NCBI GenBank assembly: GCA_964532425.1
Contig: CAZHIA010000003.1
Location: 5,594 to 69,593, forward strand
Direction: 5' to 3'
From: an uncultured Candidatus Saccharibacteria bacterium
GTDB taxonomy: Bacteria > Patescibacteriota > Doudnabacteria > UBA920
DNA: 64,000 nt
Both the position numbers and the translations under genes were made by a program. The notes below the pieces were generated by a model that made no database searches, was not told the origin of the DNA, and saw only the letters and a program-made list of their open reading frames with translations. Every line of letters starts with the position of its first letter. The first letter of the stretch is position 1. Positions 21,901-55,113 of this stretch are shown one piece after another.

Positions 21901-24354
21901 GCCGCTCCCGCCACCATCGTTCGAACCGCCGAACGCGGTAATATTACCACCGCCGCTCCCGAGATCGGTAGGGTTAGTTATCGAACCGTATGTACCGGTC
22001 GCATTCACCTGGCTGCCGTTTCCCCCACTGCCTCCATAGGAGGCCCCGGCATTAAAATTGTGCGGCGTTATTTGAGCTGTCCCCGGACCATATCCTCCGG
22101 TAAAACCTTTCGAGTCAGCCGAAATAGAGCCGCTGACAGTTAAGCTGCCGCCAATATTTGCATTAATCCTTCCTCCGATTGTGCCCGAGGTTGCAACACT
22201 GTGAGTAACTACTGCTCCGGAATATACAATAAAATCCCCGTTTGTACTTAATGGCGCAGACAGGGCGTCATAATTAAAATTGAGGACTGACGCAACCCCT
22301 CCACCCACGACTCCGAGCGTCAGTGAGTTTATTGCAGTCGGACCGTTTATATTGACAGTCGCAGCTGACGCTATCACCGCATCATCTGTTGGTCCAGGGA
22401 CGCTACCGCTGCTCCAGTTTCCACCGTCTTCCCAATTATTCGTACCTGCCCCGCCGGTCCATGAGACCGCTGAATTATAGGCATCGGCGCGAACTCCACC
22501 AAAATCAAAAACCATGTGATGATCTCCCGTACGGAGGTCAAGAAATTTTACGGTAGCCACACTATCACATTGCCACTGGGGAACGTACACGGAATGGTCA
22601 GGACGCTCCTGGACACTAACCGCCTGATCGCCGCAGGCCAAGCTCTCAAACTGCATATCGGCCACGGTATCCTGATCAGCCGGCGAGATCACTAAGTCGG
22701 AAACTCCCGTGGTCATGAATTCGATATCCCAATACTGACCAGTTATCGGATGGGAATATACGTTCAGTACCGAAATTTCTACTGTCGGGTCGACAATGAC
22801 CGGATACGAGGCATCCTTGAGCCACTCGGCGTCCGGGATAACAGTGAGCAAATTATTCTTAAGCTTTAGTTCCAGCTTCTGGCTGACACGGCCAGCACTA
22901 TCGCTCATTTGTGGAGCGGTGATTGAATACAGTTTGTAGAGCGATTGGCCGAGATATCCTTTTTTGTAGAGGTCAATTCTGTTTGGTGAAGCTTGAAGGA
23001 AGTCGTAAGTATCCATATTCAGCAAATACCGGAATTTACGGGGATGGTGAGAATTTTTCAATACAATAGATTCTTTCAAACTTCTTGCAGAGATGTCGTA
23101 CTTCACATCAGTATTCTCAAAAACATCCGAATACGTTACCGTATCACCGGACCTTGTTCCACCTGCTGCTGCCCGAGAACCAATCATAAGCATGGACAGC
23201 ACACTTGGCGCTGGCGACGACCCTTCCGCAATGGTAATCGGTTGTGACAAATCACTCGGTAAGGCAACGTCCGCGGTTTTGGTGGAACGGTGGATCAGCG
23301 AAAATTTCTGCTGGTCTCTGAGTCGATCCTGCAGTGTGTCCGAATTCTGCACTACCCCTTCCTCAGCGACCGGTTCAGAGTATTCGGCTTTAATTTTAAC
23401 TCCATCGATGGAAAGCAGTGCATCGCTCTCATCTCCCTCTCGTAAGGAACCGGGAATGAATCGCATACGAACAGTACTGCTTCCAATTTTCGTCAAAAAA
23501 GGACGAGGAAGCTCATATTCGATAAAGCCACCCATGGCGGCGTTGGAAAATCCGCCATCCAAATTGACCACTCCTGCTTTTTTCCAGGTCTGGTCCTGGT
23601 CAAAATATTCGACTTGCAACTTGGCACCAGGCAGCGGTACAGAAGCCATCGAAATATCAATCTTTAACGTTCGTAGGTAGTCAAGATTTGGAAGGGTTGT
23701 CGAGGAGTCCTCCTGGTGAAAACCAGAAAATTCAAGATCGTAGGCAGTGGCAGAATCCTCCTGGTTTTCATTCGGACTTTGTGTGACTGATGGCTCAGTT
23801 GTGGTTGCTAATACGGACGACTCCGAGCTGCTCGGAGCGGCCTTGTCATCAGAGACGACAGGGTCTGAAATTTGTGGCACAAGATCTGCGCCAACCTCTA
23901 CCGGACCAGAACTGGCAACAGTACTTGTCGCAGCGAGGTTTGCCAATTCTGATTCAATACCAAACGCCTGAACAGCCTGAGTAACATCATCCCCAGCAGA
24001 AGATTTTTCTTCCAGATTGCCAAGAAAACTCAGCTGAGCAGAATTCGACGAAGTAAACATTGATGAATCAGCGTCTGCACCAAGCTCAGTTACGAGAGCA
24101 TTATTTACATTCTTCCAAGCAAATTTTTGGCCACCAGCCCCTGCTACTGCGGTCACCACTTGCGGAACGAATCGCAAGCTGTACAGACTATTGTTTTGGT
24201 CACCTGGAGCGTCAGATTGGCTGGTCGTATCGGCTTTCACGAGGATAACACCAGACTGAAATAATTGCGCAACAAAAAAAACGGCCACCAGAATTCTGGT
24301 TGCTAAAACGGCTAACCTGGGGTAAGTTTTATTTCTGGTTTTTATCAGTTTCAA
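15973..24354 (-). CDS. giant secreted/surface protein (2793 aa) with signal peptide, Gly-rich beta-helix-like repeats, FN3/Ig-like repeats, F5/8 type C (discoidin) domain, Pro-rich stalk and C-terminal TM anchor region
   Basis: N-terminal MKLIKTRNKTYPRLAVLATRILVAVFFVAQLF. Repeated GGSGGNGS / NGGNAFSCW tracts. NAFDGNPNTYWSS discoidin-like motif. Duplicated ~110-aa modules (SSLGPNLFVTNTW... / AYLGNGPLVNGSW...). PPSGGGGGPATPPVSQAPPQTPSVPP linker. C-terminal hydrophobic helices and a carboxypeptidase-regulatory-like segment (VLVDLIDVRSGKEVDHAITDLYGKFGF). Confidence 0.85.
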   Translation of the reverse strand: MKLIKTRNKTYPRLAVLATRILVAVFFVAQLFQSGVILVKADTTSQSDAPGDQNNSLYSLRFVPQVVTAVAGAGGQKFAWKNVNNALVTELGADADSSMFTSSNSAQLSFLGNLEEKSSAGDDVTQAVQAFGIESELANLAATSTVASSGPVEVGADLVPQISDPVVSDDKAAPSSSESSVLATTTEPSVTQSPNENQEDSATAYDLEFSGFHQEDSSTTLPNLDYLRTLKIDISMASVPLPGAKLQVEYFDQDQTWKKAGVVNLDGGFSNAAMGGFIEYELPRPFLTKIGSSTVRMRFIPGSLREGDESDALLSIDGVKIKAEYSEPVAEEGVVQNSDTLQDRLRDQQKFSLIHRSTKTADVALPSDLSQPITIAEGSSPAPSVLSMLMIGSRAAAGGTRSGDTVTYSDVFENTDVKYDISARSLKESIVLKNSHHPRKFRYLLNMDTYDFLQASPNRIDLYKKGYLGQSLYKLYSITAPQMSDSAGRVSQKLELKLKNNLLTVIPDAEWLKDASYPVIVDPTVEISVLNVYSHPITGQYWDIEFMTTGVSDLVISPADQDTVADMQFESLACGDQAVSVQERPDHSVYVPQWQCDSVATVKFLDLRTGDHHMVFDFGGVRADAYNSAVSWTGGAGTNNWEDGGNWSSGSVPGPTDDAVIASAATVNINGPTAINSLTLGVVGGGVASVLNFNYDALSAPLSTNGDFIVYSGAVVTHSVATSGTIGGRINANIGGSLTVSGSISADSKGFTGGYGPGTAQITPHNFNAGASYGGSGGNGSQVNATGTYGSITNPTDLGSGGGNITAFGGSNDGGGSGGGSIILNVAATTTVSGAISANGGNAFSCWDAGGGSGGSVNVVTRTLAGNGAITARGGNACGNASGNGSGGRIAIKYTTDVSSVSYAYYSGTTWPNYGGSGTLYKKAAAQANGDLLLDNNNLNSSGATDERGYGKTPLPVFVMDSVTLKNNAAVYLVGSSSTSTVLTILSNSAYYAQSGTSFSYSSLTWSGTVVDSGGDLAVLRQNQNITIPSGTTLVVAALGASRTYNNVTIDGMLTHAYNTTATTGSASLYKLNWQVNGNLTVSGSGSVNVNGRGYVGGQGPGTSQITPRDNNAGGSYGGSGGNGSAVNAGSPYGSLVNPVDLGSGGGNSSQFGSSNDGGGAGGGAAIFSVTGTTTVDGVISANGSNAFNCWSPGGGSGGSIFITTTNFAGSGSLTSNGGNGCNNGGGGSGGRISVLSSVYNNSVSRSVSGGVGYGAGAAGSLYPASVPSVTSDDVTDILSTTATGHGTILDLPFYQITGYGSVWATYPNPSVPNVNLAILETGTAAASKANIGSASNAFDGNPNTYWSSNQGMSYDLEYDFPVSTVVNKYTITGNNYSGGGDSPRNWTFEAWDGSAWVSLQSISNQVSWANGESRSFNFVNTTPYAKYRLNISANNGGGNTAVAEFKLYDTAGSVASNGITNASGTFISSLTGLAPSTTYHVRMFAMNLKGSVYGTDKTITTGIPNNAPNSPSSLGPNLFVTNTWTASTSPYFTFNLSDPDGADSVKYRIRIDTNSNFSSSQLDYTSALNPQGSYGFTVGQLAGTGTYAIGGPGQVLSDNSSYYWEVQAIDGNGGTSPFSLANSGSIAFKLDSTPPNPGSITFNWLNPDHVDVVVSGASDNLSGIASYNFINLTNSATSTPGGATWTSGGLTPNTKYVFQSQVVDIAGNSASTATSSIYTAAQIPTNATTTVLSATSVRLTWDTNGNPPGTEYYAENSSATSNSGWVTATSTVFAGLSCGNSYSFHVKARNHDGVETAYSAMVSPPASPCNQNPNSPAYLGNGPLVNGSWINLAQPDLHFNLTDPDASDLVGYRMQISTTSDFSGLSVDYTSALAAQGDKTFVVGQNAGSGFYSVGSSAQVLPDSASGYYWRVKTLDQAGAESPWSVANNGLVAFRIDTILPNSGTLSLVSTSTGSVTIAVSGSQDAESGLSVAPYVFSNTDNWDNSGSTAATTWTDTNLPAGTYHYKVRVFDNAGNVGEALLSSQVSVQGAAASGGGGTFDPWASGSETLGFSVYVNQNDPITSTRNVTLQLTGQPGTTLMLVSNLPDLSDATPESYVTTKSWDICQNLGSCGNGTYSVYAKFLNGSGQSSGRVTDSILFQNLTSLVPGTLSVSAVTASSVSVSLTGSADAAYGLAAQPYRYFNRTTAGSSATTSNASWLSTSLVPNTQYDFYAIVTNANNTSGYAPDVFAYTLANVPGNVSTTTVTATAVGLTWDANGNPIGTEYQVENMTASTTTSWISATTTTVSGLACNSHYQFHVKARNANAQETGFSPALDITTSACDLPVQNPPSGGGGGPATPPVSQAPPQTPSVPPTDTGREPVLVPLPPEPAPVSNQPASHRDPDSVQPPVAPAENPPHQTGNLLPGSQAGSSTPIQQIPGEQPPSGGSGSIPASPVTPISPVLEGITSVASNVVRQLGEKISAGRTGIVSMPQLRSMELTSRMATIAIAPTTLTLESSLSTYGLSMNAGSASDIWLYFLRLVYGLLGMLGIRARRRHWGTVYDSKNKQPLDPVLVDLIDVRSGKEVDHAITDLYGKFGFLDKPGLYRIRARKTNYTFPSVHVAGSSDGIYENVYHGEELSVRNGSAPLTPNIPMDQQAFDWNQEDKKRIVKFHPRIEHILNITLELVFWAGLAWTLLVFAMRPNWLNGLFLAVYVVLAVLRKVVPHARLLGRLAGSRDVGGLYLELSPVALPTIVMGKAVTKPNGVFFLKSQPGTYLLKVKEISEDRAVLVYEGQVTIGKQGVLNKTIAIS

Positions 24355-25838: not shown

Positions 25839-26408
25839 CTAGCGTTTAGCCCACTGCGGGGAGCGGCGAGCTCTCTTGAGTCCGGGCTTCTTGCGTTCCT
25901 TTTCGCGCGGGTCGCGGGTAAGGAAACCGTTCTTCTTGAGCACTTTGCGAATATCATCAGAGAGGCCGGCAAGCGCCATGGAAATACCGTGGCGCAAGGC
26001 CTGGGCCTGGCTGTGCGGACCGCCGCCGGAAACGTTGGCCGTGAAATGAAAATCACTGGCCAGACCGGTCAACTGGAACGGTTTTAAAGCTTCTTCACGA
26101 TAGAAAGAGTAGCCGAAATAATCCTTGAGCGGTTTCTTGTTCACGACCGATTCCCCTTCTCCGGAGAATAATCGCACGTTGGCGATGGAGGTCTTGCGGC
26201 GTCCAGTCGAGAAAATATACTTGTCCTTGGACAAGTGCGGCTTTACGGCAATCACTGGAGTCTCGGCGACGGCAGCGGCTGCAACAACCACTTCCTTTTC
26301 CTTGGCCGGCTCTTTCTTCTTTACGGTGCGCGGCTTGCGCGGAGCCTTGGCTCCGGCGGCTGCGGTTTTCGTAGTCTTAGTTGGCATAATACTTAGTACA
26401 TGTGACAT
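25839..26408 (-). CDS. rpsI: 30S ribosomal protein S9 with Lys/Ala-rich N-terminal extension
   Basis: C-terminus GFLTRDPREKERKKPGLKRARRSPQWAKR and core YIFSTGRRKTSIANVRL are canonical S9. About 55 extra N-terminal residues rich in K/A/P. Confidence 0.9.
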   Translation of the reverse strand: MSHVLSIMPTKTTKTAAAGAKAPRKPRTVKKKEPAKEKEVVVAAAAVAETPVIAVKPHLSKDKYIFSTGRRKTSIANVRLFSGEGESVVNKKPLKDYFGYSFYREEALKPFQLTGLASDFHFTANVSGGGPHSQAQALRHGISMALAGLSDDIRKVLKKNGFLTRDPREKERKKPGLKRARRSPQWAKR

Positions 26409-26476
26409 TTGACCTTTGACATGTGACAGTCAGTATCAAATGTTAATGGTCAAATGTTAATGGTCAAATGTATGAT
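26409..26476. repeat. intergenic word-repeat element (ACATGTGACATTTGACCTTTGACATGT core plus GGTCAAATGTTAAT repeats)
   Basis: CATGTGACATTTGACCTTTGACATGTGACAGTCAGTATCAAATGTTAATGGTCAAATGTTAATGGTCAAATGTA, near-identical to 29713-29775. Confidence 0.8.
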
Positions 26477-26902: not shown

Positions 26903-27022
26903 AAATGTATCGAATCTACGAATCAGACGAATCTTCGAATGTTCTGCGAATCTACGAATCCCTACATTCGTAGTCCTTCGTAGATTCGTTCCATTCGTTG
27001 ATTCGATGTATTAACTGTTAAC
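26903..27022. repeat. imperfect 110-bp palindrome built from ACGAAT/ATTCGT words
   Basis: CGAATCTACGAATCAGACGAATCTTCGAATG...TACGAATCCCTACATTCGTAGTCCTTCGTAGATTCGTTCCATTCGTTGATTCG, centred on TACGAATCCCTACATTCGTA. Confidence 0.75.
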
Positions 27023-27367
27023 TTATTCTACAAATTCCAATACTGCTTTGGACTTCCCCGCTTTGGGATCGTTCAATTTGGTAAGCCGGGTATAACCGCC
27101 CTTGCGCTCTTTGAACTTTGGCCCAAGTACTTCCAGGGCTTTCTTCGCAGCCATCGGAGTCAATTTAGACAGCAGTAACCTGCGGGAATGCAAGGAATTA
27201 ACCTTCGCTTGGGTTACCGCCTTTTCAACATAACTCTTTGCGGCGCGGGCATTGGCATAGCTCGTCTCGATGCGTTCGTACAAAATTGCCGAAGAGGCCA
27301 AGGTGCGGAGCAGTTTGCGCTTGTGGTCGGTTCCCTTACCGATTTTCTTCTTTTTTGCGTGGCGCAT
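27023..27367 (-). CDS. rplQ: 50S ribosomal protein L17
   Basis: MRHAKKKKIGKGTDHKRKLLRTLASSAILYERIETSYANARAAKSYVEKAVTQAK matches L17. Confidence 0.9.
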   Translation of the reverse strand: MRHAKKKKIGKGTDHKRKLLRTLASSAILYERIETSYANARAAKSYVEKAVTQAKVNSLHSRRLLLSKLTPMAAKKALEVLGPKFKERKGGYTRLTKLNDPKAGKSKAVLEFVE

Positions 27368-27463
27368 AATGTTAGTTCAAAATTTAAAGTTCAAAATGCA
27401 AAATTTAGGTGCCGCTTCGCGGCTTCTATAATTTTTCATTTTGCACTTTTCACTTTTAATTGA
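27368..27463. repeat. repeated r-protein leader element (copy 1): AGTTCAAAATTTAAAGTTCAAAATGCAAAATTTAGGTGCCGCTTCGCGGC...
   Basis: About 60 bp nearly identical to 29125-29185. Contains the GCCGC-TTC-GCGGC hairpin and AU-rich tracts. Lies immediately upstream of the rplQ start codon, which has no SD. Confidence 0.8.
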
Positions 27464-28402
27464 TTATTGTCTTCCTAAGAAATCAAGGATCTCTTTCACG
27501 GTTTTCTCCCCGAGTCCTTCCATGTTCGAAATGTCGTCGCTATTCAAGCCTTGCAGCTGGGTCAGCGTCGTCACCCCGTTCTTGGTCAGTGCATTCTTGG
27601 CGCGGGTAGACAAAGGAGAAGCTTCAATTTCATTTTCTCCTGCCGGTTCCGCCATGGCGACAGCGCCTTCCAGCACCGGGGCATCCACAGCCGGCTGAAG
27701 CTCAGCTGGAGCAGTGAAGGTGTCAGAGAAGATCATGGTAAAGTGGTCGACCAGGATATGAGCCGCGATATCAAAGGCTTCTCCGCCTTCAATGCTCCCG
27801 TCAGTCTCCAGGACCATAACCAACTTTTCATAGTTCGTGAATTGTCCCACGCGGACATTCGACACATCGAAGTACGCGCTGCGGACTGGGGTGTAGATTG
27901 CATCAACGCCGATCACACCAACTTCCGGCTTAACGTTCTCGCGGGTCTCAACGGGCTGGTATCCCCTGCCTTGCTCAACCGTGATCTCCATGTCGAACTC
28001 GGCATTCTTGTTGTCCAGCGTAGCGATATGTAGGTCTTTGTTGATGACCTGAACCTGGTCGGTTTCCTTGATATCAGCCGCGGTCACCACACGTTCACCC
28101 TTGACCTTCACCTGAAGCTTCACCGGTTCAGCGGAAAAGCTCTTCACTCTGAGTTGCTTGAGGTTGAGGATGATCTGGATGACGTCTTCCTTGACGTTCG
28201 GAATGGTAGAGAACTCGTGGTCAACGAACTTGATCTTGACCGATGTTACAGCTGCGCCAGGCATAGAGGACAAGAGTACTCTCCTCAAAGCGCTGCCGAT
28301 GGTCACGCCGTAGCCAGGGTAAAGCGGCTCGAGCGTTAAGCTGTACTTATTGCTGCCCAAGGATTCTACCTTGGCCCGATTGGGAAGTGGAATTGCTTCC
28401 AT
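27464..28402 (-). CDS. rpoA: DNA-directed RNA polymerase subunit alpha
   Basis: NTD LTLEPLYPGYGVTIGSALRRVLLSSMPGAAVTSVKI and CTD NALTKNGVTTLTQL are typical RpoA. Confidence 0.92.
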   Translation of the reverse strand: MEAIPLPNRAKVESLGSNKYSLTLEPLYPGYGVTIGSALRRVLLSSMPGAAVTSVKIKFVDHEFSTIPNVKEDVIQIILNLKQLRVKSFSAEPVKLQVKVKGERVVTAADIKETDQVQVINKDLHIATLDNKNAEFDMEITVEQGRGYQPVETRENVKPEVGVIGVDAIYTPVRSAYFDVSNVRVGQFTNYEKLVMVLETDGSIEGGEAFDIAAHILVDHFTMIFSDTFTAPAELQPAVDAPVLEGAVAMAEPAGENEIEASPLSTRAKNALTKNGVTTLTQLQGLNSDDISNMEGLGEKTVKEILDFLGRQ

Positions 28403-28513: not shown

Positions 28514-29122
28514 TTATGTGCGGCTATAATGTTCAACAATCAACTGGGTGTTGATGGTGTTGCTGATCATTTCCGGCGTGGGCTGTGTCAATACTTTACC
28601 GGAGAGCTTCTGTGAATTCAGCTCCACCCATTCCTGGGTCTTGGAGTTTTTAAGCTGCTCCTTCAACTTTTCCACGAAGGCCTTGCTCTGCTTGACTGCG
28701 CGGATCGCAACGGTATCGCCGACTTTCACGCTGTATGACGGGATATCGACTTTCTTGCCGTTAACTTCGAAGAATCCATGGCTGACAAGCTGGCGGGCTT
28801 GGGCGCGGGTCGCGGCAAAACCCAGACGGAACACCACATTGTCGAGGCGCAACTCGAGCATCTTCAATAAATTGTCGCCGGTTACTCCAGGTTGCTTCAA
28901 TGCCTTCTCGAAGTAAATGCGGAATTGGCGCTCGAGTACTCCGTAATTGATTTTGGCTTTCTGCTTCTCACGAAGCTGCAAGCCGTATTCAGACGGGCGG
29001 CTGCGGCCCTGGCCATGCTGGCCAGGGGCATAGGCTCGCTTTTGAAGGATCTTGGCATCCTTATCCGTAAAGGCCATGCCAAACCTTCTCGCCTTTTTTA
29101 CTTTAGGTCCTGTGTATCGCAT
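28514..29122 (-). CDS. rpsD: 30S ribosomal protein S4
   Basis: MRYTGPKVKKARRFG...LESRLDNVVFRLGFA is canonical S4. Confidence 0.92.
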   Translation of the reverse strand: MRYTGPKVKKARRFGMAFTDKDAKILQKRAYAPGQHGQGRSRPSEYGLQLREKQKAKINYGVLERQFRIYFEKALKQPGVTGDNLLKMLELRLDNVVFRLGFAATRAQARQLVSHGFFEVNGKKVDIPSYSVKVGDTVAIRAVKQSKAFVEKLKEQLKNSKTQEWVELNSQKLSGKVLTQPTPEMISNTINTQLIVEHYSRT

Positions 29123-29232
29123 AATAGTTCAAAATTTAAAGTTCAAAATGCAAAATTGAGGTGCCGCTTTGCGGCTACTATAGATGTCCGCCGAAGGCGG
29201 ACTCCATAACTTTTCATTTTGCACTTTGCATT
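29123..29232. repeat. repeated r-protein leader element (copy 2)
   Basis: AGTTCAAAATTTAAAGTTCAAAATGCAAAATTGAGGTGCCGCTTTGCGGC plus a second hairpin CCGCCGAAGGCGG. Immediately upstream of the SD-less rpsD start. Confidence 0.8.
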
Positions 29233-29703
29233 TTACACTCTCCTGGGTTTCTTGGGACGGACTCCGCCGTGCGGAATAGGAGTCTGGTCCTTAATGGATA
29301 ACACGTTGAGACTGGAGCCTTGCAAGGCTCTGACTGCCGATTCACGTCCGCTGCCGATACCCTTAATGAGCACATCGACTTCGGAAAGGCCGCGATCGCG
29401 GATCCTGGTCAGGACGTCTTCCATGGTCTTCTGGCCGGCGTACGGAGTGGACTTCTTGGAACCTTTAAAACCGATTTTGCCTGCACTGCTCCAGATAATC
29501 ACATTGCCATTCACATCAGTCACGGAAACGATGGTGTTATTGTACGTGGAGTTGATGTAAATCTTGCCTTTAGTGATCTTCGCCTTGGATTTCTTCTTTT
29601 TAGACTTGATCTTCGCAGTAGCATCCGTAGCAGCTGTTTCTTCGGCGGCAGGAGCGGCAACGACGGTCTCTTCGGTAATTGGATTGGTAAGTTCTTCTGC
29701 CAT
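29233..29703 (-). CDS. rpsK: 30S ribosomal protein S11
   Basis: [44 protein letters not shown] matches S11. Start set at MAEEL. Confidence 0.9.
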
Positions 29704-29780
29704 AAATAATCTGATACATGTGACATTTGACCTTTGACATGTAACCGTCAATTGTCAAATGTTAATTGTCAAATGTTAGC
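29704..29780. repeat. intergenic word-repeat element (same family as 26409)
   Basis: CATGTGACATTTGACCTTTGACATGTAACCGTCAATTGTCAAATGTTAATTGTCAAATGTTAGC. Confidence 0.8.
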
Positions 29781-30737: not shown

Positions 30738-30907
30738 AGAAGGTATTTGAATTTATTAAATTCCCGTATATTATAGCACAGGTTCCAAATATGTCAAATA
30801 TAATGGTGACTTTAGCTGTCAGCTTACAGCTTATAACTTTCAGTTTGACAATTTATCAATAAATCAGTATAAATAATTTTACCAATAACCCTTTAAAATA
30901 GCATGAT

Positions 30908-30947
30908 TTATTAAGAAAAACCTCCGCCAACAGTGGAGGTTTTTTTG
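30908..30947 (-). terminator. rho-independent terminator (hairpin AAACCTCCGCCAAC/GTGGAGGTTT)
   Basis: Downstream of the 30996..32690 gene. Flanked by AGCTTATAGCT-type motifs. Confidence 0.6.
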
Positions 30948-30995
30948 GCTTCTGCTATAAGCTAATACCTATAACCTGAAAGCTTCTCGTTTTAA

Positions 30996-32690: not shown

Positions 32691-32749
32691 ACAAAAATAG
32701 CTGTTTACCTACAGCTATTGTAGGATAATCGGAAAAGGAAGGCAAGGGA

Positions 32750-32863
32750 AAAGAAATGACAAAAATGACATAATTGAACAAAATTGACAAAATTATATAA
32801 CTGCATCTGCAGTTTAATTTTGTCAATTTTGTTCAATTTTTTTAAATTTTGCTCAATTCCCCC
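32750..32863. repeat. composite intergenic palindrome (TTGACAAAAT family), copy 2
   Basis: GAACAAAATTGACAAAATTA TATAACTGCATCTGCAGTT TAATTTTGTCAATTTTGTTC: perfect 20-bp inverted arms around a CTGCATCTGCAG core. Confidence 0.8.
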
Positions 32864-34030
32864 TTATACCAAGCCCTTATACCCTAATCGCTTCGTAAAG
32901 CTGATATTTTTGCTGTTCTCCACCTGCGGCTGGTTGAACGGGTCCACGCCGCGCAGCGCTGAAGCGTAGACTGCGTAGAGCTGCCAGAACGCGGTCAACT
33001 GACCGATCTCCTGGGCCGAAAAACCGGCTGCCGCCAAGTGGACCAGCGGAATGCCGTGAATGCGGGCGTCCTCCATGGTGCCCTGCAATTCGCATTCCAT
33101 AGATTGCTCCAGTGGAATTTTGTTCAGGTCAAAGAGCGCCCGACTCTTCAGTTGTACGCTGTGGATGGAAGCCGGCAAAATATTCACGGTCGGATGCAAA
33201 AAAGTCTCAGTTGAAACAAAGAACCCGCAGATATTTTTTTGCCCTCCGAAAAACCGCTGATTGGTATGATGCTGGGATTCCGGCGCCTCATGGGCAAAAT
33301 ATGTCTGGCCTTTACCGTCCTTGCCGAATGATTCGTGGCACAGCTGGACGATTAGACTGCTGAGTGGAAACAGATTGTGGCTATAGAACGGCATAAAGAC
33401 GTCCACATACCCATCCTGTTCCAGCTGCCAGAACACGCTCGCGGCCTTAAAAGCCAGATTGTCTTTCGGATACTGGGCGTAAACTGCCCGGGCGCCTTCA
33501 TAGAGGCTTTTCACATCCAGCCCACAAATCGCAGCCGGCAACAGCCCGACTTCGGTCAAGCCAGTGTACCTGCCGCCGATCGGCGGATGCATGACAATCT
33601 CCATTTTCAGCTTTTCCGCAATCGCCCGTACCGGACTGGACCTACCGGTTACCACCACCATGGGATACTCGGTAAACTGCATCATCGCCTCTATCTGCGT
33701 TGTGTTTTCGCCGGATTTAGTAATCGCCATGACCAGTGTATTCTCTGGTTTGAGGGCACTCTTGAGCTCGTAAATATAATCAGGGTCAGTAGTATTCAAA
33801 AAAAATGCACGTTTGGTTGCCTGGTACTTCAAGGCGTGGTAAAAGCCGTAAAAACTCGTAATACTGCCGCCATGACCGATGACCAAAATATTTTCGTACG
33901 CCGTGAACTCTCTGGCATATTTGTCCATCAGATCAAAATCCGGCTGATAGCCCAAAAACGCCGGCGCTTCGGGCAAAAGCTGGAGGTCAAGCGTTTCCGG
34001 CTCAGGGCAATTATAAAAATCGAGTTTCAT
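32864..34030 (-). CDS. pgi: glucose-6-phosphate isomerase (SIS-domain PGI)
   Basis: VIGHGGSITSFYGFYHAL and MAITKSGENTTQ (SKSG-T motif) of phosphoglucose isomerase. Confidence 0.65.
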   Translation of the reverse strand: MKLDFYNCPEPETLDLQLLPEAPAFLGYQPDFDLMDKYAREFTAYENILVIGHGGSITSFYGFYHALKYQATKRAFFLNTTDPDYIYELKSALKPENTLVMAITKSGENTTQIEAMMQFTEYPMVVVTGRSSPVRAIAEKLKMEIVMHPPIGGRYTGLTEVGLLPAAICGLDVKSLYEGARAVYAQYPKDNLAFKAASVFWQLEQDGYVDVFMPFYSHNLFPLSSLIVQLCHESFGKDGKGQTYFAHEAPESQHHTNQRFFGGQKNICGFFVSTETFLHPTVNILPASIHSVQLKSRALFDLNKIPLEQSMECELQGTMEDARIHGIPLVHLAAAGFSAQEIGQLTAFWQLYAVYASALRGVDPFNQPQVENSKNISFTKRLGYKGLV

Positions 34031-34066
34031 ATTTTTAGCTTATAGCTTTTAGCTGTCAGCTTATAG

Positions 34067-34432
34067 TCAGGCAGCGGGTGTTAATTTTTTGATAATTACA
34101 TTTAACATTTTCATTACCTCTATCGCGAGGGAAACGACTTTGGCATATGATTGTTCATCGCAAAATCCAAGTTTGTGAGCAATCTCTATTTGCGTTTCCA
34201 ATTCCGCCCCTGAGGCCAAGGCAATAATTAAGAACTGACGAAAGTCCTTCCTCGTTCCGCGTGTCCTCCCTTCCGCAATATTCGACGGAATGGACACGGC
34301 ACACCTTCTGCTTTGCGAAACCAAACCGAACAATTCGGATTTGGGATAGCATGATGTCATTTGATATACAGCAATAACCAAATCCATCGATTTCTGCCAA
34401 ACGATTAAATTTCGATAGCTCTCGATTGGCAT
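34067..34432 (-). CDS. four-helix-bundle protein (TIGR02436; 23S rRNA intervening-sequence protein family)
   Basis: YRNLIVWQKSMDLVIAVYQMTSCYPKSELFGLVSQSRRCAVSIPSNIAEGRTRGTRKDFRQFLIIALASGAELETQIEIA is a near-consensus match to this family. Flanked by inverted AGCTTATAGCT-type repeats. Confidence 0.85.
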   Translation of the reverse strand: MPIESYRNLIVWQKSMDLVIAVYQMTSCYPKSELFGLVSQSRRCAVSIPSNIAEGRTRGTRKDFRQFLIIALASGAELETQIEIAHKLGFCDEQSYAKVVSLAIEVMKMLNVIIKKLTPAA

Positions 34433-34467
34433 TGGTGTTCTATAAGCTATAAGCTGGAAGCTAAAAG

Positions 34468-36288
34468 CTACTCAACCGTCGCCTTAATCCTCCTCACTCC
34501 TGCCGAGGAGGCTTCTTCTTTTTGTATTTTGAAATTACCGATCATTCCGGTATGTTCGACGTGCGGGCCGCCGCAAAATTCGCGGGAGACTACTTCATCC
34601 GTTTTGGGATCGTATACGGTATAGACGGAGACCGTATCCCCGTATTTTTCTCCGAATACGCCGATGGCATTCAATTTCTTAGCTTCTTCCAAAGGTAAAA
34701 CATCTTTTTTCACCGTTAGATCACGATTGATCCAATTATTAACCATTTTCTCGACTTCCTGCTTCTGTTCGTCGGTCATTTTTTCGCCATGCGTAAAATC
34801 GAACCGCGTGCGTTCTTCGGTAATATTACTCCCCTTTTGCCAGACGCTGTCGCCAAGCACTTTGCGCAAAGCAGCGTTCATCAAGTGGGTAGCCGTATGC
34901 AGCCTCACGATCTTGTCACTATGACTGGCTAAGCCGCCTTTAAATTGGCCTGCACTGGCTGTGCGGGAAAGTTCCTGGTGCTTTTTGAACTCCGATTCGA
35001 ACTCGGTCTTGTCGATTTGCTGGCCCATTGATTCGGCAAGTTCTTTGGTCAGCTCCCAGGGAAAGCCGAAAGTTTGGTAGAGATCGAAGGCATCCTTGCC
35101 GGTTAACCCCTGCTCCCCTGTACGGGAGGGTCGCGACCCTCCCCTACTCTGTATGATCTTTTCAAATTCCTTCAAGCCCTTTTCCAGCGTGGCCTCGAAC
35201 TTCTTCTGCTCTCCCTCGATCACGGCAAATATCCGCTCCGACTTATCGATCAAATCAGGATACGCTTCGGCATACGTTGCCACTACTTTGCCGATCAAAG
35301 CCTTCAGCCATTCATGCTTGAGTCCTAAAAGTCTTCCCATGACCATGGCGCGGCGCAGCAGGCGACGCAAAACGTAGCCGCGATCCTTATTGGACGGATC
35401 TACGCCGTCACCCACGATAAAGACCGAAGCCCTGATGTGGTCAAGCACGATCCGGGCTTTTTTCACCTCGTCGTTGGTCATAATGGCCTGGTCCAAGGCG
35501 ATCACTTCCCACATCGGTTTGAACAGCTCGGTATCGTAGACGGAACTGTGGCCATTCAAAGCGACCAGGGTACGGTCTAAACCCATACCGGTATCAACAT
35601 TCGGCTTTGGCAGCGGGGTCAGCGTACCGTCCGCATGCTTTTCGAACTGCATAAAAACGTCGTTCCAGATCTCGACCCAGCGCTTGTCGTTCTTCGTCTC
35701 CGCAAAATTCTTCGGCGCTGGAGTGCCGTCATCAACCCAATAGAACATTTCCGTATCCGGCCCGCACGGCCCGGTCGTTCCCGCAATCCACCAGTTATCT
35801 TCCTTAGGCAAATACGCAATACGCTCTTCGGGCACGCCAAGAGATTTCCACATCGAAGCCGCTTCTTCGTCGCGCGGAGCATCACTGTCACCGGCGAAGA
35901 CCGAAAACGCCAAACGCTCGAGCGGCAGCCCGAGATGTTTTGGATCGGTCAAAAATTCGAAGCTCCAGGAAATGGCTTCTTTCTTGAAATAGTCGCCAAA
36001 GCTCCAATTGCCGAGCATTTCGAAAAACGTCAGGTGGGTGTTATCCCCGACTTCGTCGATATCGCCGGTACGGATGCACTTTTGCACATCGGTCACGCGC
36101 GTACCGCCCGGATGATTCTCGCCCAAAAGGTACGGCACCAGCGGATGCATGCCGGCAGTGGTGAACAAAACGGAAGAGTCATTTTCCGGCACCAGACTGG
36201 CGGACGGAATTATTGTGTGGCCTTTGGACTTGAAGAATTCCAAATATTTGGTACGGAGTTCTTGGGCTGTAATGTGGGACATAAGCAA
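34468..36288 (-). CDS. alaS: alanine--tRNA ligase, short form (catalytic, tRNA-recognition and editing domains; no C-Ala domain)
   Basis: ELRTKYLEFFKSKGHTIIPSASLVPENDSSVLFTTAGM ... FEMLGNWSFGDYFK ... HTATHLMNAALRKVLGDSVWQKGSNITEERTRFDFTH editing motif. 606 aa. Carries the in-frame palindromic insertion at 35120-35147. Confidence 0.9.
   Translation of the reverse strand: MLMSHITAQELRTKYLEFFKSKGHTIIPSASLVPENDSSVLFTTAGMHPLVPYLLGENHPGGTRVTDVQKCIRTGDIDEVGDNTHLTFFEMLGNWSFGDYFKKEAISWSFEFLTDPKHLGLPLERLAFSVFAGDSDAPRDEEAASMWKSLGVPEERIAYLPKEDNWWIAGTTGPCGPDTEMFYWVDDGTPAPKNFAETKNDKRWVEIWNDVFMQFEKHADGTLTPLPKPNVDTGMGLDRTLVALNGHSSVYDTELFKPMWEVIALDQAIMTNDEVKKARIVLDHIRASVFIVGDGVDPSNKDRGYVLRRLLRRAMVMGRLLGLKHEWLKALIGKVVATYAEAYPDLIDKSERIFAVIEGEQKKFEATLEKGLKEFEKIIQSRGGSRPSRTGEQGLTGKDAFDLYQTFGFPWELTKELAESMGQQIDKTEFESEFKKHQELSRTASAGQFKGGLASHSDKIVRLHTATHLMNAALRKVLGDSVWQKGSNITEERTRFDFTHGEKMTDEQKQEVEKMVNNWINRDLTVKKDVLPLEEAKKLNAIGVFGEKYGDTVSVYTVYDPKTDEVVSREFCGGPHVEHTGMIGNFKIQKEEASSAGVRRIKATVE
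35120..35147. mobile_element. 28-bp palindromic element GTACGGGAGGGTCGCGACCCTCCCCTAC inserted in-frame in alaS
   Basis: Near-perfect palindrome centred on TCGCGA. Same architecture and termini as the elements at 59381, 39389 and 41359. Encodes the GGSRPSRTGEQG-type insert in AlaRS. Confidence 0.6.
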
Positions 36289-36383: not shown

Positions 36384-36854
36384 TTAATCAATTTTGTGAT
36401 ATTTCCTTACTAACCACTCCGATACATACCCAGTATACTTTCTTCTTACTTTGTCTGGCATATTTCGGTAGGCTCCAATAATTCCCCGGCAGCTTTCCGT
36501 TTCGCACTTGCACTGCATCCGCCACCAGGTGCTATCCTCGGTCATTTCATAGTCCCAGGTAATCTCCTCGCCAGGTTCTATATCCCGCATCGCCACGACT
36601 TCGACTAAATTCCGAATGCCACAATTCGGCTCGCATGAATGATTGATTAAATGGGCAGATCCGGCCGGCATGCGCCATTTCGCCGGGGCGATTTGAATGG
36701 AGTGGTGAAGCTCGTAGGAAGTAAAGTCGTCCTTTGCCGTAAGTATTTTTCCGTCAAAAGCCTCAACTAACTCCCCTTTCTTAATCTTTTCAGTAACAAA
36801 AACTCCCCAGCCGCCTACGCGACTTTTTTTTACCTTCAATTTCGGATTTTTCAT
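36384..36854 (-). CDS. SET-domain protein (putative protein-lysine methyltransferase)
   Basis: NHSCEPNC and EITWDY motifs plus a C-terminal Cys cluster (post-SET-like CKCETESC). Confidence 0.8.
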   Translation of the reverse strand: MKNPKLKVKKSRVGGWGVFVTEKIKKGELVEAFDGKILTAKDDFTSYELHHSIQIAPAKWRMPAGSAHLINHSCEPNCGIRNLVEVVAMRDIEPGEEITWDYEMTEDSTWWRMQCKCETESCRGIIGAYRNMPDKVRRKYTGYVSEWLVRKYHKID

Positions 36855-38562: not shown

Positions 38563-39555
38563 TCACCTGCTTACCCTCGGATCACTCTTAACAGAATTGA
38601 TGACGATCAGTGTCCACATCCGCGCATAAATGCCGCAATAGACCAGCCAATTGAACCAAAACGGATATTTTTCGCGATAATGCTTGCGGTAAAAAATCCA
38701 CATAGCGTCATGGAACCAACGGAGGGCTTTGGTTGCGACCTTGCGGCTAGATTCGCCTTTGTAATGAGTAATGAACGTTTGAGGATAGTACCAAACCTTA
38801 AAACCCGCTTCCTTGCAGCGCCAGCACCAGTCCAGGTCTTCGCCGTACATGAAAAACGTTTCATCCAGCAGCCCGATCTTTTCGACAACATCCTTCCGCG
38901 CCAGACAGAAGGCTCCAACCAGACTGTCAATCTCCGATTCCTGGTCAGCCGTCTCATCCGAAAAGTTATACGCCGCATCTCCGGCTACCTTTTGCAAGTG
39001 TAAAAACCGCAGCATGGCATTCCACGGGTTCGGGAATTTCCGCCGCGCCGCGCGATCCAGGCTACCATCCGGCTTCATAATTTTGCACGTGCTCATGCCC
39101 ACATCCGGATGTGTTTCCATAAAATCGAGCATCACTTTGAACGTGTCCGGTTCGACCTTGGTATCGGGATTAAGCAGGAGGACGTAACGTCCGGTTGACT
39201 GTTTAATGCCGATGTTGTTGCCAGCCGCAAAACCGTTGTTGATGTTACGGATAAGCTTATAGCTATCAGCTGTCAGCTTATAGTTTTCGAGCCATTCATA
39301 GGTGCCGTCCGGTGAACCATTGTCGACGATGATAACCTCACCGGTATATTGCGCTCCATGAGGCTGGCTATTGGCTTGCTGTTCGGATGTAGGGGCGACT
39401 ACCAGCCGCCCTTCAGATTGCGGGCGGCCAGTGGCCGCCCCTACAAAAACCACCCTCTTACTACCCCAAATCGAAGGCAGCAGCACTTTAAGGTGTTCTT
39501 TGGACCGGTAGGAAAGAATAATAATGGAAAGATCAAACCTATTGACAGAATTCAT
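38563..39555 (-). CDS. glycosyltransferase family 2 (rhamnosyltransferase-like), with about 40-aa in-frame insertion
   Basis: LSIIILSYRS ... IIVDNGSPDGTYEW ... NNGFAAGNNIGIKQSTGRYVLLLNPD are GT2 motifs. An insert (WGSKRVVFVGAATGRPQSEGRLVVAPTSEQQANSQPHGAQYTG) is encoded by the palindromic element at 39389-39444. Confidence 0.8.
   Translation of the reverse strand: MNSVNRFDLSIIILSYRSKEHLKVLLPSIWGSKRVVFVGAATGRPQSEGRLVVAPTSEQQANSQPHGAQYTGEVIIVDNGSPDGTYEWLENYKLTADSYKLIRNINNGFAAGNNIGIKQSTGRYVLLLNPDTKVEPDTFKVMLDFMETHPDVGMSTCKIMKPDGSLDRAARRKFPNPWNAMLRFLHLQKVAGDAAYNFSDETADQESEIDSLVGAFCLARKDVVEKIGLLDETFFMYGEDLDWCWRCKEAGFKVWYYPQTFITHYKGESSRKVATKALRWFHDAMWIFYRKHYREKYPFWFNWLVYCGIYARMWTLIVINSVKSDPRVSR
39389..39444. 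mobile_element. 56-bp palindromic element GTAGGGGCG...CGCCCCTAC inserted in-frame in the GT2 gene
   Basis: Termini GTAGGGGCG / CGCCCCTAC are exact reverse complements. The inner GCCGCCC / GGGCGGC arms add a second stem. Confidence 0.55.
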
Positions 39556-45567: not shown

Positions 45568-45690
45568 ACAACAATAATTGACAAAAATGACAAAATTGAA
45601 CAAAATTGACAAAATTATGCTGCAATTCTATCTTCAATTTTTGTCAATTCTGTCATTTTTTTAAATTTTGATCAATTTCTAACAAGCATT
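45568..45690. repeat. composite intergenic palindrome (TTGACAAAAT family), copy 3
   Basis: AATTGACAAAAATGACAAAATTGAACAAAATTGACAAAATT ... AATTTTTGTCAATTCTGTCATTTTTTTAAATTTTGATCAATT. Confidence 0.75.
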
Positions 45691-47105: not shown

Positions 47106-47220
47106 GGAAAAGTAAAAAGTTTAAAGTAAAAAGTTAAAAGTTAGGAACCAGAGCAGGCTGCAAGTATAGTACCATAATAGCCGTGATGACACCAAAGAAA
47201 TCGCGAGCAATGTTTGCCTC

Positions 47221-55004: not shown

Positions 55005-55113
55005 TAAAAATTCAGATTATTCAATGGTTCCATACGGGAATCCATGGCTCACGTCGGGCGAGGCGAACCACCGCTTCCTATAAACTATAACCTACAAACT
55101 ATAAACTATTCCC

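What the first reader, a model, noticed from the sequence alone, without database searches (positions are those of the whole stretch)
34031..34475. rRNA-IVS-type four-helix-bundle gene flanked by inverted AGCTTATAGCT-type repeats, between pgi and alaS
TIGR02436 proteins are classically encoded inside 23S rRNA intervening sequences that form a long stem. Here the gene sits between protein-coding genes but is bracketed by imperfect inverted repeats (TAGCTTTTAGCTGTCAGCTTATAG at 34040-34063 vs CTATAAGCTATAAGCTGGAAGCTAAAAGCTA at 34442-34472) that could recreate such a stem in the transcript. The same AGCT(T/G)ATAGCT / AGCTGTCAGCT words recur at 30810-30850, 30955-30990, 32697-32720 and inside a GT2 gene at 39246-39290, so the gene may travel as part of a small mobile or processed unit.
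Basis: partly seen in the sequence, partly recalled or inferred. Interest (0 to 1): 0.55.

Follow-up and report, generated by a model that had tools for sequence, protein, structure and literature searches.

The report
IVS-type gene cassette outside rRNA
A small four-helix-bundle gene of the kind known from 23S rRNA intervening sequences sits here between alaS and pgi, bracketed by inverted arrays of 7-base repeats; the same anatomy turns out to flank this gene family across many bacterial phyla, which suggests a widespread hairpin-bounded gene cassette that I did not find described.

Summary
A TIGR02436/PF05635 four-helix-bundle (4HB) gene lies at 34067-34432 (-). It is bracketed by inverted arms at 34036-34066 and 34440-34470, each about 4.4 tandem copies of a 7-nt unit (NAGCTNN). 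The arms fill both intergenic gaps. The alaS stop codon is the first TAG of the 5' arm, and the pgi ATG lies 5 nt after the 3' arm. Of 46 genes in the window, only this one has complementary flanks.

The architecture matches the Coxiella 23S rRNA IVS, which has heptamer repeats in an RNase III-cut terminal stem around an S23p ORF. Here it sits in an mRNA operon of a Doudnabacteria-like CPR genome.

In 76 homologous loci from many phyla, 38 have such arms. Controls gave 0/76 (cross-locus), 0/76 (random position) and 7/293 (neighbour genes). Arm periods are 7, 8 or 9.

Close relatives carry the cassette at alaS|pgi, S41|alaS or tsaC|MFS, or lack it.

A second family, GxxExxY, shows the same anatomy.

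RNase III processing and mobility are inferred, not shown. The mismatch spectrum gives no RNA-specific signal. Heptamer arrays also abound without the gene.

The parts
34036..34470 (-). Whole cassette: 5' arm, 7-nt spacer, 4HB ORF, 3' arm (435 nt)
34440..34470 (-). 5' (upstream) arm on the coding strand: TAGCTTT TAGCTTC CAGCTTA TAGCTTA TAG. Its first TAG (34468-34470) is the alaS stop codon. The arm ends 7 nt before the 4HB ATG.
34067..34432 (-). Four-helix-bundle protein gene (121 aa; TIGR02436 / PF05635, '23S rRNA intervening sequence protein')
   Evidence: AF2 model pLDDT 94.7 with four helices. Foldseek TM 0.91 to 2GSC (XCC0516), 0.81 to 2RLD, 0.75 to Avd.
34036..34066 (-). 3' (downstream) arm on the coding strand: CTATAAG CTGACAG CTAAAAG CTATAAG CTA. 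It starts directly after the 4HB stop codon and ends 5 nt before the pgi ATG (34030).
34468..36288 (-). alaS, upstream neighbour, same strand
   Evidence: Synteny in relatives.
32864..34030 (-). PGI-like gene, downstream neighbour, same strand
   Evidence: weak Pfam match. Orthologues are 62-70% identical in L083-L086.
30812..30986 (-). Gene-less, degenerate pair of AGCT/AGGT heptad arms (30812-30846 and 30953-30986) around a 107-nt loop that holds a G+C-rich terminator-like hairpin. It lies between the 564-aa gene and infA.
   Evidence: The fold gives only a 9-bp outer stem (z -2.6).
39254..39283 (.). Direct copy (28/30 identical) of the arm 34037-34066, lying inside the GT2 ORF. It encodes YKLTADSYKL in a variable linker. 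It is not an insertion relative to orthologues.

Best explanation
This is an IVS-type cassette sitting in an mRNA operon instead of an rRNA gene. A promoter-less 4HB gene is embedded in the loop of a long hairpin whose two arms are inverted arrays of tandem 7-nt units.

Shown:
- The anatomy of the cassette.
- Its exclusivity among the 46 genes of the window.
- A predicted 10+13 bp stem.
- The generality of the same anatomy across the 4HB family, and in a second small-gene family (GxxExxY).
- Presence, absence and position polymorphism of the cassette among close relatives.

Inferred:
- alaS, 4HB and pgi are co-transcribed. They share a strand, the gaps are 35-36 nt, and no terminator or convincing promoter lies between them.
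- In the transcript the arms pair into a double-stranded RNA (dsRNA) stem of about 25-30 bp. Such a stem is a substrate for RNase III, as demonstrated for the heptamer-containing stem of the Coxiella 23S IVS.
- Cleavage would excise the 4HB message and separate the alaS and pgi messages, so the insertion is tolerated wherever it lands, in an rRNA helix or an operon spacer.
- The tandem-repeat make-up lets the arms grow, shrink and re-pair in several registers by slippage.
- Over evolutionary time the gene plus its arms relocates between intergenic junctions by an unknown DNA mechanism, possibly recombination with the resident repeat arrays that are abundant in these genomes.
- The 4HB protein itself (Avd-like pentamer fold) is most likely a nucleic-acid-binding factor acting on such repeat or hairpin RNA. 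Its function is not established.
For: Anatomy in the window
- Arms, spacing and neighbours.
- Only gene of 46 with complementary flanks.
- Terminal stem in the MFE and centroid structures, z -4.5. Duplex -36.4 kcal/mol.
- No terminator-like site on the - strand between the three genes. Promoter-like hits are not above shuffles.

Precedent
- The Coxiella IVS has 2-3 GACAGAT heptamers next to the S23p ATG, inside a 28-bp terminal stem. RNase III cuts at the first repeat (PMC4990558).

Family-wide survey (76 4HB loci)
- Arm score of 28 or more in 38/76 loci, against 0/76 cross-locus and 0/76 random-position controls, and 7/293 neighbour genes.
- Inverted arms in 38/76 loci, direct repeats in 3/76.
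- Period 7 in 33 loci, 8 in 10, 9 in 2.
- Period 7-9 arrays are 13 times denser within 100 nt of the gene ends.
- Long-range stem of 12 bp or more in the MFE of 57/79 cassettes, against 29/79 with a swapped flank.

Polarity and context
- The upstream arm has G>C in 39/45 loci, p 5e-7.
- The gene is co-oriented with its upstream neighbour in 63/72 loci. Median gaps are 56 and 40 nt.

Polymorphism among relatives with AlaS 81-83% identical
- alaS|4HB|pgi in L085.
- S41|4HB|alaS in L083.
- No 4HB in L084 and L086.
- A third context, tsaC|4HB|MFS, in L003, with the same AGCT/AGGT heptads.

Second cargo family
- GxxExxY genes have period-8 inverted arms in 7 loci, in three different gene contexts.
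Against: - No experiment or transcript data exist for this organism.
- Mismatches between the arms show no excess of sense-strand G.U-compatible changes (35 against 35). There is therefore no positive signature of selection on the sense RNA. The stem is equally good on the antisense strand.
- No rnc gene was seen in the 64 kb (uninformative).
- Relatives without the 4HB gene (L084, L086) still keep a solo (CTANNNN)x5 array in front of pgi, with no partner after alaS. At least the 3' arm may be a resident host feature rather than part of a travelling unit.
- Periodic hairpins occur in most intergenic spacers of this genome.
- No target-site duplication, transposase or recent identical copy was found. 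The closest 4HB protein among 5.8 billion is 73% identical.
Confidence: 0.55

Rival explanations
1. The arms are generic host intergenic elements: the short-period repeat hairpins and leader arrays that this lineage places between most genes. They could act, for example, in mRNA processing, stability or translation initiation. The 4HB gene is an ordinary small gene that lies between two of them. There is no cassette.
For: - The window has 29 period 7-9 arrays, against 2-5 in block-shuffled sequence. Many form inverted pairs in spacers just upstream of start codons.
- Syntenic relatives show the same style with other units.
- L084 and L086 keep a (CTANNNN)x5 array before pgi without a 4HB gene.
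- AGCT-heptad arrays in metagenomes lie next to a 4HB gene in only 3 of 136 cases. They often form gene-less hairpins with loops of 25-228 nt.
- Heptamer arrays upstream of start codons are described in Beggiatoaceae, Cyanobacteria and Bacteroidetes (PMC4679880).
Against: - Other spacers hold local hairpins with both arms in one spacer. Here each spacer holds one arm, and its partner is across the gene.
- This long-range configuration is found for 50% of 4HB genes, against 2.4% of neighbour genes and 0% of random positions. It holds in CPR and non-CPR genomes alike.
- Self-hairpins in the flanks are rare (4/38).
- Related 4HB genes keep related arms at different junctions (window, L083, L003).
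- GxxExxY genes keep near-identical arms in three unrelated contexts.
Confidence: 0.2
2. It is a DNA-level mobile element. The arms are terminal inverted repeats used by a recombinase or nuclease supplied in trans. For GxxExxY cassettes the cargo PD-(D/E)XK nuclease itself could serve. Alternatively the arms are used in hairpin or cruciform-targeted recombination. The RNA stem is incidental.
For: - The mismatch spectrum is symmetric (35 against 35).
- The cassette's position varies among relatives.
- GxxExxY (nuclease-fold) and DUF559 (endonuclease-fold) genes are also bracketed by inverted repeats.
- A 28/30 copy of one arm lies inside the GT2 ORF 4.8 kb away.
- Arm similarity tracks protein similarity, also across phyla (Mantel rho 0.30, 0 of 300 permutations).
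- Older literature hypothesised a transposon origin for IVSs (quoted in PMC4990558).
Against: - No target-site duplication is evident.
- There is no transposase or integrase nearby.
- There are no near-identical copies anywhere.
- The arms diverge fast and are repeat arrays rather than a defined end sequence.
- The strong G-rich-5' / C-rich-3' polarity relative to the ORF (39/45) and the co-orientation with the operon point to a transcript-level constraint. A symmetric TIR would not need either.
Confidence: 0.15
3. The arms are binding sites for the 4HB pentamer itself, as an autoregulatory or RNP-forming repeat array with one unit per subunit. The many gene-less arrays are further targets of the same protein, a trans-acting regulator of repeat-bearing transcripts.
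For: - The fold is that of Avd, a pentamer that binds RNA within the DGR ribonucleoprotein (Foldseek hits 4DWL and 8UB7-8UBE, TM 0.75). XCC0516 is a homopentamer (PMC4990558, citing Lin 2006).
- The arms have about 4-5 units.
- Protein identity correlates with arm similarity.
- In published tables, the gene for the crystallised XCC0516 overlaps a GGGAATC heptamer array (PMC4692102 supplement).
- Taxa known for heptamer arrays (Xanthomonas, Nostoc, Beggiatoaceae, Bacteroidetes) are taxa where this family occurs.
Against: - GxxExxY cassettes have the same kind of arms without a 4HB gene in the locus.
- Several different repeat units coexist in this one window, which has a single 4HB gene.
- No binding data exist.
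- The protein-arm correlation is confounded by shared ancestry and base composition.
Confidence: 0.1

Closest known systems
23S rRNA intervening sequence (IVS) with S23p ORF, e.g. Coxiella burnetii and Leptospira (PMC4990558)
   Same: - Same protein family as cargo.
- Terminal inverted repeats form a stem of about 25-30 bp that encloses the ORF.
- The stem is built from tandem heptamers that abut the start codon (GACAGAT in Coxiella, NAGCTNN here).
- The element is about 430 nt (428 nt in Coxiella, 435 nt here).
   Different: - This one is located between protein-coding genes (alaS|pgi) in an mRNA operon, not in helix 45 or 25 of 23S rRNA.
- RNase III excision is demonstrated there and only inferred here.
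- The Coxiella ORF is decaying. Here the ORF is intact and conserved (33 invariant columns among 33 relatives).
Intergenic tandem heptamer arrays: cyanobacterial STRR-type repeats, TAACTGA repeats of Beggiatoaceae (PMC4679880), GGGAATC repeats of Xanthomonas with 70-75 convergent pairs per genome (PMC4692102)
   Same: - Arrays of 2-6 or more copies of a 7-nt unit in spacers, often ending a few nt before a start codon.
- They frequently occur as convergent (inverted) pairs.
- The same taxa are involved.
- One such array overlaps the start of XCC0516, a 4HB gene.
   Different: - Those papers treat the arrays as stand-alone elements (G-quadruplexes or regulator binding sites).
- I found no link to 4HB or GxxExxY genes in them. 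A text search of both papers for S23, intervening and four helix gave no hits.
- Here the arrays bracket a gene.
DGR accessory protein Avd (PF22296, NF033474)
   Same: Four-helix-bundle fold, with TM about 0.75 to 4DWL and 8UB7-8UBE. Weak HMM similarity.
   Different: - Scores are below both curated cut-offs (24 against 40 bits; 20.6 against 80 bits).
- No reverse transcriptase or template/variable repeat was seen in the neighbourhood.
REP / RAYT (REPIN) systems and MITEs
   Same: - A small gene is flanked by inverted copies of a short repeat that also occurs many times without the gene.
- The repeats sit in intergenic positions.
   Different: - The cargo is not a transposase.
- The arms are tandem arrays of variable units, not a fixed palindrome.
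- There are no near-identical copies and no target-site duplications.

Membership tests
TIGR02436 / PF05635 four-helix-bundle protein (23S rRNA IVS protein, 'S23p') | HMM score above the curated cut-off | tested here: met
   PF05635 128 bits against 33.8. TIGR02436 126 bits against 24.
TIGR02436 / PF05635 four-helix-bundle protein (23S rRNA IVS protein, 'S23p') | Four-helix-bundle fold like XCC0516 (2GSC) | tested here: met
   AF2 pLDDT 94.7 with helices 10-26, 31-57, 61-87 and 93-117. Foldseek TM 0.91 and rmsd 0.8 to 2GSC. phmmer E 1e-22 to 2GSC.
TIGR02436 / PF05635 four-helix-bundle protein (23S rRNA IVS protein, 'S23p') | Conserved motif GxxRxxxSxxxNxxE (PMC3936711) | tested here: met
   R43, S47, N51 and E54 are present and invariant in 33 relatives. 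The first position is Q40 instead of G.
TIGR02436 / PF05635 four-helix-bundle protein (23S rRNA IVS protein, 'S23p') | Homopentameric assembly | not tested
   Only a monomer model was made.
rRNA intervening sequence (IVS) | Inserted in a helix of a 23S (or 16S) rRNA gene | tested here: not met
   Rfam finds only RNase P RNA in the window. The element lies between alaS and pgi. No rRNA signature motifs occur in any of the 4HB loci examined.
rRNA intervening sequence (IVS) | Terminal inverted repeats forming a long stem around the insert | tested here: met
rRNA intervening sequence (IVS) | Excision by RNase III without religation | not testable with these tools
   Needs RNA mapping or an in vitro cleavage assay.
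Transposable element with terminal inverted repeats (MITE-like) | Target-site duplication and multiple near-identical copies | tested here: not met
   The flanks outside the arms differ (TTTT against CTCA). There is only one 4HB copy in the window. The best non-self protein is 73% identical.
DGR Avd | Avd HMM above cut-off and an adjacent reverse transcriptase / template repeat | tested here: not met
   PF22296 24 bits against 40. NF033474 20.6 bits against 80. The neighbours are alaS, pgi, SET and an S41 peptidase.
Intergenic tandem heptamer arrays (STRR / TAACTGA / GGGAATC type) | Three or more tandem copies of a 7-nt unit in a spacer, close to a start codon | tested here: met
   TRF period 7, 4.4 copies on each side. 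The 3' arm ends 5 nt before the pgi ATG and the 5' arm ends 7 nt before the 4HB ATG.

The most novel reading that the evidence does not exclude
4HB (TIGR02436) and GxxExxY (TIGR04256) genes, together with their inverted arrays of 7-9-nt repeats, form a pan-bacterial class of hairpin-loop gene cassettes. The classical rRNA IVSs would be only the rare rRNA-resident members. The long-puzzling intergenic heptamer arrays (STRR, TAACTGA, GGGAATC) would be the gene-less derivatives or targets. The cargo proteins would act on these repeat hairpins, the 4HB as an Avd-like RNA/DNA-binding pentamer and GxxExxY as a nuclease.
Probability: 0.25. Interest if true: 0.85.

Novelty: new variant of a known kind. 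Interest (0 to 1): 0.65.

Why it matters
TIGR02436 and TIGR04256 are very large families of small proteins of unknown function. Each of my searches hit the 8000-candidate ceiling.

rRNA IVSs have been known since 1990 without an agreed origin. Tandem heptamer arrays in Cyanobacteria, Xanthomonas and sulfur bacteria likewise lack an explanation.

These three puzzles may share one anatomy: a small gene in the loop of a hairpin built from short tandem repeats. If so, the origin of IVSs, the role of the arrays and the function of the proteins can be tested together. The tests would be RNase III mapping, binding assays and genome-wide co-occurrence.

It would also mean that operons in many phyla carry self-insulating passenger genes.

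Tried and rejected
1. G.U test for RNA-level selection. Sense-compatible and antisense-compatible transition mismatches in the arms are 35 against 35. No support; reported as evidence against.
2. Permuting the order of repeat units within an arm, to ask whether unit variants are mirrored. Observed exceeds the shuffled mean in 28/33 loci. With only 3-5 units the test has little power, and segment choice biases it. Treated as suggestive only.
3. The idea that TAG every 7 nt gives stops in all three frames. In this window the TAGs fall in only two frames (offsets 0, 7, 21, 28; the unit at offset 14 is CAG). Many lineages use CAG or AAG units. Dropped as a general explanation.
4. Search for an RNase III signature in the window: none found. 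Uninformative for 64 kb out of a 285-kb contig.
5. Looking for the cassette inside rRNA. No rRNA motifs occur in any 4HB locus.
6. Reverse search from the motif in metagenomes. Arrays are mostly not next to 4HB genes. This rejects 'AGCT heptads mark 4HB genes' and strengthens the host-feature rival.
7. Viral contigs. 16 4HB loci were found, 8 of them with arm scores of 25 or more. Only one GxxExxY locus was found. Nothing indicates phage as the vehicle.
8. PADLOC gave no defence-system match for the 4HB protein.
9. Site A (30812-30986) as an 'empty' cassette. The fold gives only a 9-bp outer stem. It is kept as a degenerate relative, not as proof.
10. Site C in GT2 as an in-frame insertion. 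The alignment shows a length-neutral variable linker, not an insertion. Unexplained.
11. Literature. No paper in the searchable library links non-rRNA 4HB genes to inverted heptamer arrays. Subscription literature and database family notes could not be checked.
Full report
WHAT IS THERE

- PF05635 matches at E 2e-37, and TIGR02436 scores 126 bits against a cut-off of 24.
- An AlphaFold model has pLDDT 94.7 and four helices.
- Foldseek gives TM 0.91 to XCC0516 (2GSC), 0.81 to BT_0352 (2RLD) and about 0.75 to the DGR protein Avd.

The gene is bracketed by arms at 34440-34470 and 34036-34066. They are 31 nt and 81% complementary, with a 24-nt core at 92%.
- Read on the coding strand, the 5' arm is TAGCTTT TAGCTTC CAGCTTA TAGCTTA TAG.
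- The 3' arm is CTATAAG CTGACAG CTAAAAG CTATAAG CTA.
- Both are therefore tandem arrays of a 7-nt unit (TRF period 7, 4.4 copies).

The arms occupy the whole of both intergenic gaps.
- The alaS stop codon is the first TAG of the 5' arm.
- The 4HB ATG follows that arm after 7 nt.
- The 3' arm starts right after the 4HB stop.
- The pgi ATG follows the 3' arm after 5 nt.

All three genes are on the - strand. No terminator-like site and no promoter signal above chance lies between them.

IS IT MORE THAN CHANCE?

- Three in-phase AGCTNNN units occur 7 times in the window against 0.00 expected.
- Among 46 genes of the window, this is the only one whose 60-nt flanks are complementary (score 38, next best 22).
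- The sense transcript closes the terminal stem in both the MFE and the centroid structure (z -4.5).
- The two arms alone form a 10+13 bp duplex of -36.4 kcal/mol.

- 30814-30831 is a heptad array with a degenerate inverted partner at 30953-30986, around a 107-nt loop.
- 39254-39283, inside a GT2 gene, is a 28/30 direct copy of one arm.
- 32696-32719 is only a simple 9-bp hairpin.

THE ORGANISM AND ITS RELATIVES

The protein and its neighbours place the window in a Doudnabacteria-like member of the Patescibacteria. Named AlaS and 4HB hits are from Candidatus Doudnabacteria. Four syntenic relatives, with AlaS 81-83% identical, were fetched.
- L085 has alaS-4HB-pgi, as here. Its arms have diverged (TAGCTTG TAGTTTG TAGGCGG... 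/ CTACAAA CTAATAC CTACCAC...) but still bracket the gene.
- L083 has the 4HB gene, with TAGCTTA/TAGGGGT arms, between the S41 peptidase gene and alaS. Its alaS-pgi gap holds two other small genes.
- L084 has a NUDIX gene between alaS and pgi.
- L086 has an unrelated 158-aa gene there.
- A further Doudnabacteria contig, L003 (4HB 68% identical), carries the cassette between tsaC and a membrane-protein gene. Its 5' arm encodes the last seven residues and the stop codon of tsaC.

So closely related cassettes with related AGCT/AGGT heptads occupy at least three junctions, and the alaS|pgi junction is variable.

There is a caveat. L084 and L086 still have a solo (CTANNNN)x5 array directly before pgi, with no partner after alaS.

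THE SAME ANATOMY ACROSS THE FAMILY

A scan of one genome per species returned 80 loci with relatives of the protein. They come from CPR, Acidobacteriota, Planctomycetota, Bacteroidota, Clostridia, Gammaproteobacteria, Fibrobacter and others. I aligned the 120 nt upstream against the reverse complement of the 120 nt downstream.
- A score of 28 or more was reached in 38 of 76 usable loci.
- Controls gave 0 of 76 when flanks were paired across loci and 0 of 76 at random positions of the same loci.
- Neighbouring genes of up to 500 aa gave 7 of 293. Several of those 7 are adjacent to the 4HB gene or are a second cassette.
- The flanks are inverted, not direct, repeats: 38 against 3.
- The arms are tandem arrays with period 7 in 33 loci, 8 in 10 and 9 in 2. 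Units vary by lineage: CAGTCGG, TAGTGGT, AGATGCC, TTAGCTNN, TAGGGGA and others. They usually lie within a few to a few tens of nt of the ORF ends.
- Period 7-9 arrays are 13 times denser within 100 nt of the gene ends than elsewhere in the same loci, in CPR and non-CPR genomes alike.
- In an MFE fold, 57 of 79 cassettes form at least 12 long-range pairs between the flanks, against 29 of 79 when the downstream flank is swapped.
- The cassette has a polarity. The upstream arm on the coding strand has G>C in 39 of 45 loci (p 5e-7).
- The gene is on the same strand as its upstream neighbour in 63 of 72 loci. Median gaps are 56 and 40 nt.
- Arm similarity between loci rises with protein identity, including between phyla (Mantel rho 0.30, 0 of 300 permutations).
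- None of these loci shows rRNA signature motifs, so the rRNA location that named the family was not seen in this sample.

A SECOND CARGO

One of the high-scoring 'control' genes is a GxxExxY protein (TIGR04256, PD-(D/E)XK fold). Five further loci of its relatives and one viral contig all have inverted arms.
- The arms are period 8-9, for example ACCGCAGAGACGCGGAGACGC.
- They occur in three unrelated gene contexts: histidine kinase, cyanophycinase|cyanophycin synthetase, and nuclease|UbiE.

A DUF559 endonuclease-fold gene in L083 is also bracketed by a 40-nt inverted repeat.

LITERATURE

The Coxiella 23S rRNA IVS is 428 nt.
- It has a 28-bp terminal stem cut by RNase III.
- Cleavage occurs at the first repeat (PMC4990558).

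That is the anatomy seen here.

Other relevant reports:
- CPR rRNA genes carry 23S_rRNA_IVP ORFs at several 16S and 23S sites (PMC11270868).
- Such genes have been noticed wedged between cas genes (PMC3936711).
- Xanthomonas has 186 GGGAATC heptamer arrays, 70-75 of them as convergent pairs (PMC4692102). The supplementary table of that paper lists one array overlapping the start of XCC0516, the crystallised 4HB protein, without comment.
- TAACTGA arrays upstream of start codons occur in Beggiatoaceae, Cyanobacteria and Bacteroidetes (PMC4679880).

I found no paper that connects non-rRNA 4HB or GxxExxY genes with inverted heptamer arrays. Subscription literature and database notes could not be searched.

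HOW IT MOST LIKELY WORKS

The best-supported reading is that this is an IVS-type cassette in an operon. The sequence of events would be:
- The 4HB gene is co-transcribed with alaS and pgi.
- The arms pair in the RNA into a stem long enough for RNase III.
- Cleavage releases the 4HB message and separates the neighbours' messages, so the passenger does little harm.
- Tandem-repeat arms can pair in several registers and change length by slippage. This fits the strain-to-strain unit number changes reported in Coxiella.

All of this beyond the anatomy, the fold prediction and the comparative pattern is inference.

Three results weigh against over-confidence.
- First, mismatches in the arms show no excess of G.U-compatible changes on the sense strand (35 against 35). 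There is thus no positive sign that the sense RNA structure is what selection sees.
- Second, this genome, its relatives and the other 4HB-bearing genomes are full of gene-less short-period arrays and hairpins. The window has 29 against 2-5 in shuffles, and all loci together have 370 against about 44.
- Third, starting from the motif, AGCT heptad arrays in metagenomes lie within 120 nt of a 4HB gene in only 3 of 136 cases. 19 of 61 have a nearby inverted partner, with loops of 25-228 nt.

So 4HB genes commonly have such arms, but such arrays mostly lack the gene.

The rivals are therefore:
- the arms are resident host spacer elements;
- the arms are DNA-level inverted repeats of a mobile unit;
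- the arms are binding sites of the Avd-like pentamer.

These are not mutually exclusive with the main reading.

VERDICT

- As a family member, the protein is ordinary.
- As an element, it fails the defining feature of an IVS (rRNA location) but works like one in every feature that could be examined.

The broader pattern is two large unknown-function families enclosed by inverted 7-9-nt repeat arrays across phyla, tied to the unexplained heptamer arrays of several lineages. It appears under-described and is directly testable.

Noticed in passing
window 6436-6538, 12094-12283, 26398-26471, 26911-27005, 27360-27470, 29120-29240, 29716-29776, 32757-32858, 45571-45678, 53061-53155; single arrays at 3778-3815, 47108-47143, 55078-55109: Most intergenic spacers of this almost entirely minus-strand gene array carry inverted pairs of 7-10-nt tandem repeats. 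The units differ from AGCTNNN (e.g. ACATTTG, TTGACAAAA, CGAATCTA). They form AT-rich hairpins that end 5-12 nt before the next start codon. Some have a small G+C-rich hairpin in the loop. There are 29 arrays against 2-5 in block-shuffled sequence. Syntenic relatives show the same style with other units.
   Followed up: partly
window 39254-39283: A 28/30 identical direct copy of the cassette's 3'-side arm lies inside the GT2 ORF and encodes YKLTADSYKL in a variable linker. It is length-neutral relative to four orthologues, so it is not a simple insertion. Its origin is unexplained (a gene-conversion patch?). In L084 a GT2 gene likewise holds a stretch complementary to the array before pgi (L084 396-419, score 33).
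   Followed up: partly
window 39340-39460 (palindrome 39391-39446): A G+C-rich palindrome (GTAGGGGCGACTACCAGCCGCCC...GGGCGGCCAGTGGCCGCCCCTAC) lies in frame inside the GT2 gene 38563-39555 (-). It adds about 30 residues that are absent from the orthologues in L085 and L086.
   Followed up: partly
L037 1103-1590; L224, L225, L228, L233, L234 around 1440-1960; L223: GxxExxY (TIGR04256, PD-(D/E)XK fold) genes are bracketed by inverted period-8 arms (ACCGCAGAGACGCGGAGACGC and its complement) in three unrelated gene contexts. This is a second cargo family with the same cassette anatomy.
   Followed up: partly
L083 6240-6700: A DUF559 (Vsr-like endonuclease fold) gene in the alaS-pgi gap of a relative is flanked by a 40-nt inverted repeat (CTCCCCTTTTGAAGGGGAGGTTAGGAGGGG and its complement).
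   Followed up: no
alaS|pgi junction: window 34031-34467; L083 5789-6923; L084 5789-6248; L085 5798-6222; L086 5786-6312: This junction is a hot spot. It holds 4HB (window, L085), NUDIX (L084), an unrelated 158-aa ORF (L086), or a 144-aa ORF plus DUF559 (L083). L084 and L086 keep a solo (CTANNNN)x5 array just before pgi.
   Followed up: yes
76 4HB loci (L003-L082): The cassettes have a polarity: a G-rich arm upstream and a C-rich arm downstream of the ORF (G>C in 39 of 45 loci; totals G 400, C 142). The same unit type TAGTGG(T/G) occurs in Gammaproteobacteria, Planctomycetota, Fibrobacter and Peregrinibacteria.
   Followed up: partly
PMC4692102, supplementary file 2, repeat no. 15: In Xanthomonas campestris a GGGAATC heptamer array lies between bccP (XCC0517) and XCC0516 and overlaps the XCC0516 start (-17). 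XCC0516 is the 4HB protein whose crystal structure is 2GSC. The authors did not note the gene family.
   Followed up: no
window 36384-36854 (-): A SET-domain protein gene (PF00856, E 7e-17) sits between the S41 peptidase gene and alaS. It is absent from that gap in all four syntenic relatives, so this is another variable small gene.
   Followed up: no
window 13879-14193 (-) and 15973-24354 (-): RNase P RNA (bacterial class A, 104 bits) and a 2793-aa ORF. Neither was examined further.
   Followed up: no
L171 2411-2800: In a metagenome contig, an rpsQ-like gene in a ribosomal-protein operon is flanked by AGCT heptad arrays in direct, not inverted, orientation. This shows that such arrays also serve as plain spacers between operon genes.
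   Followed up: no
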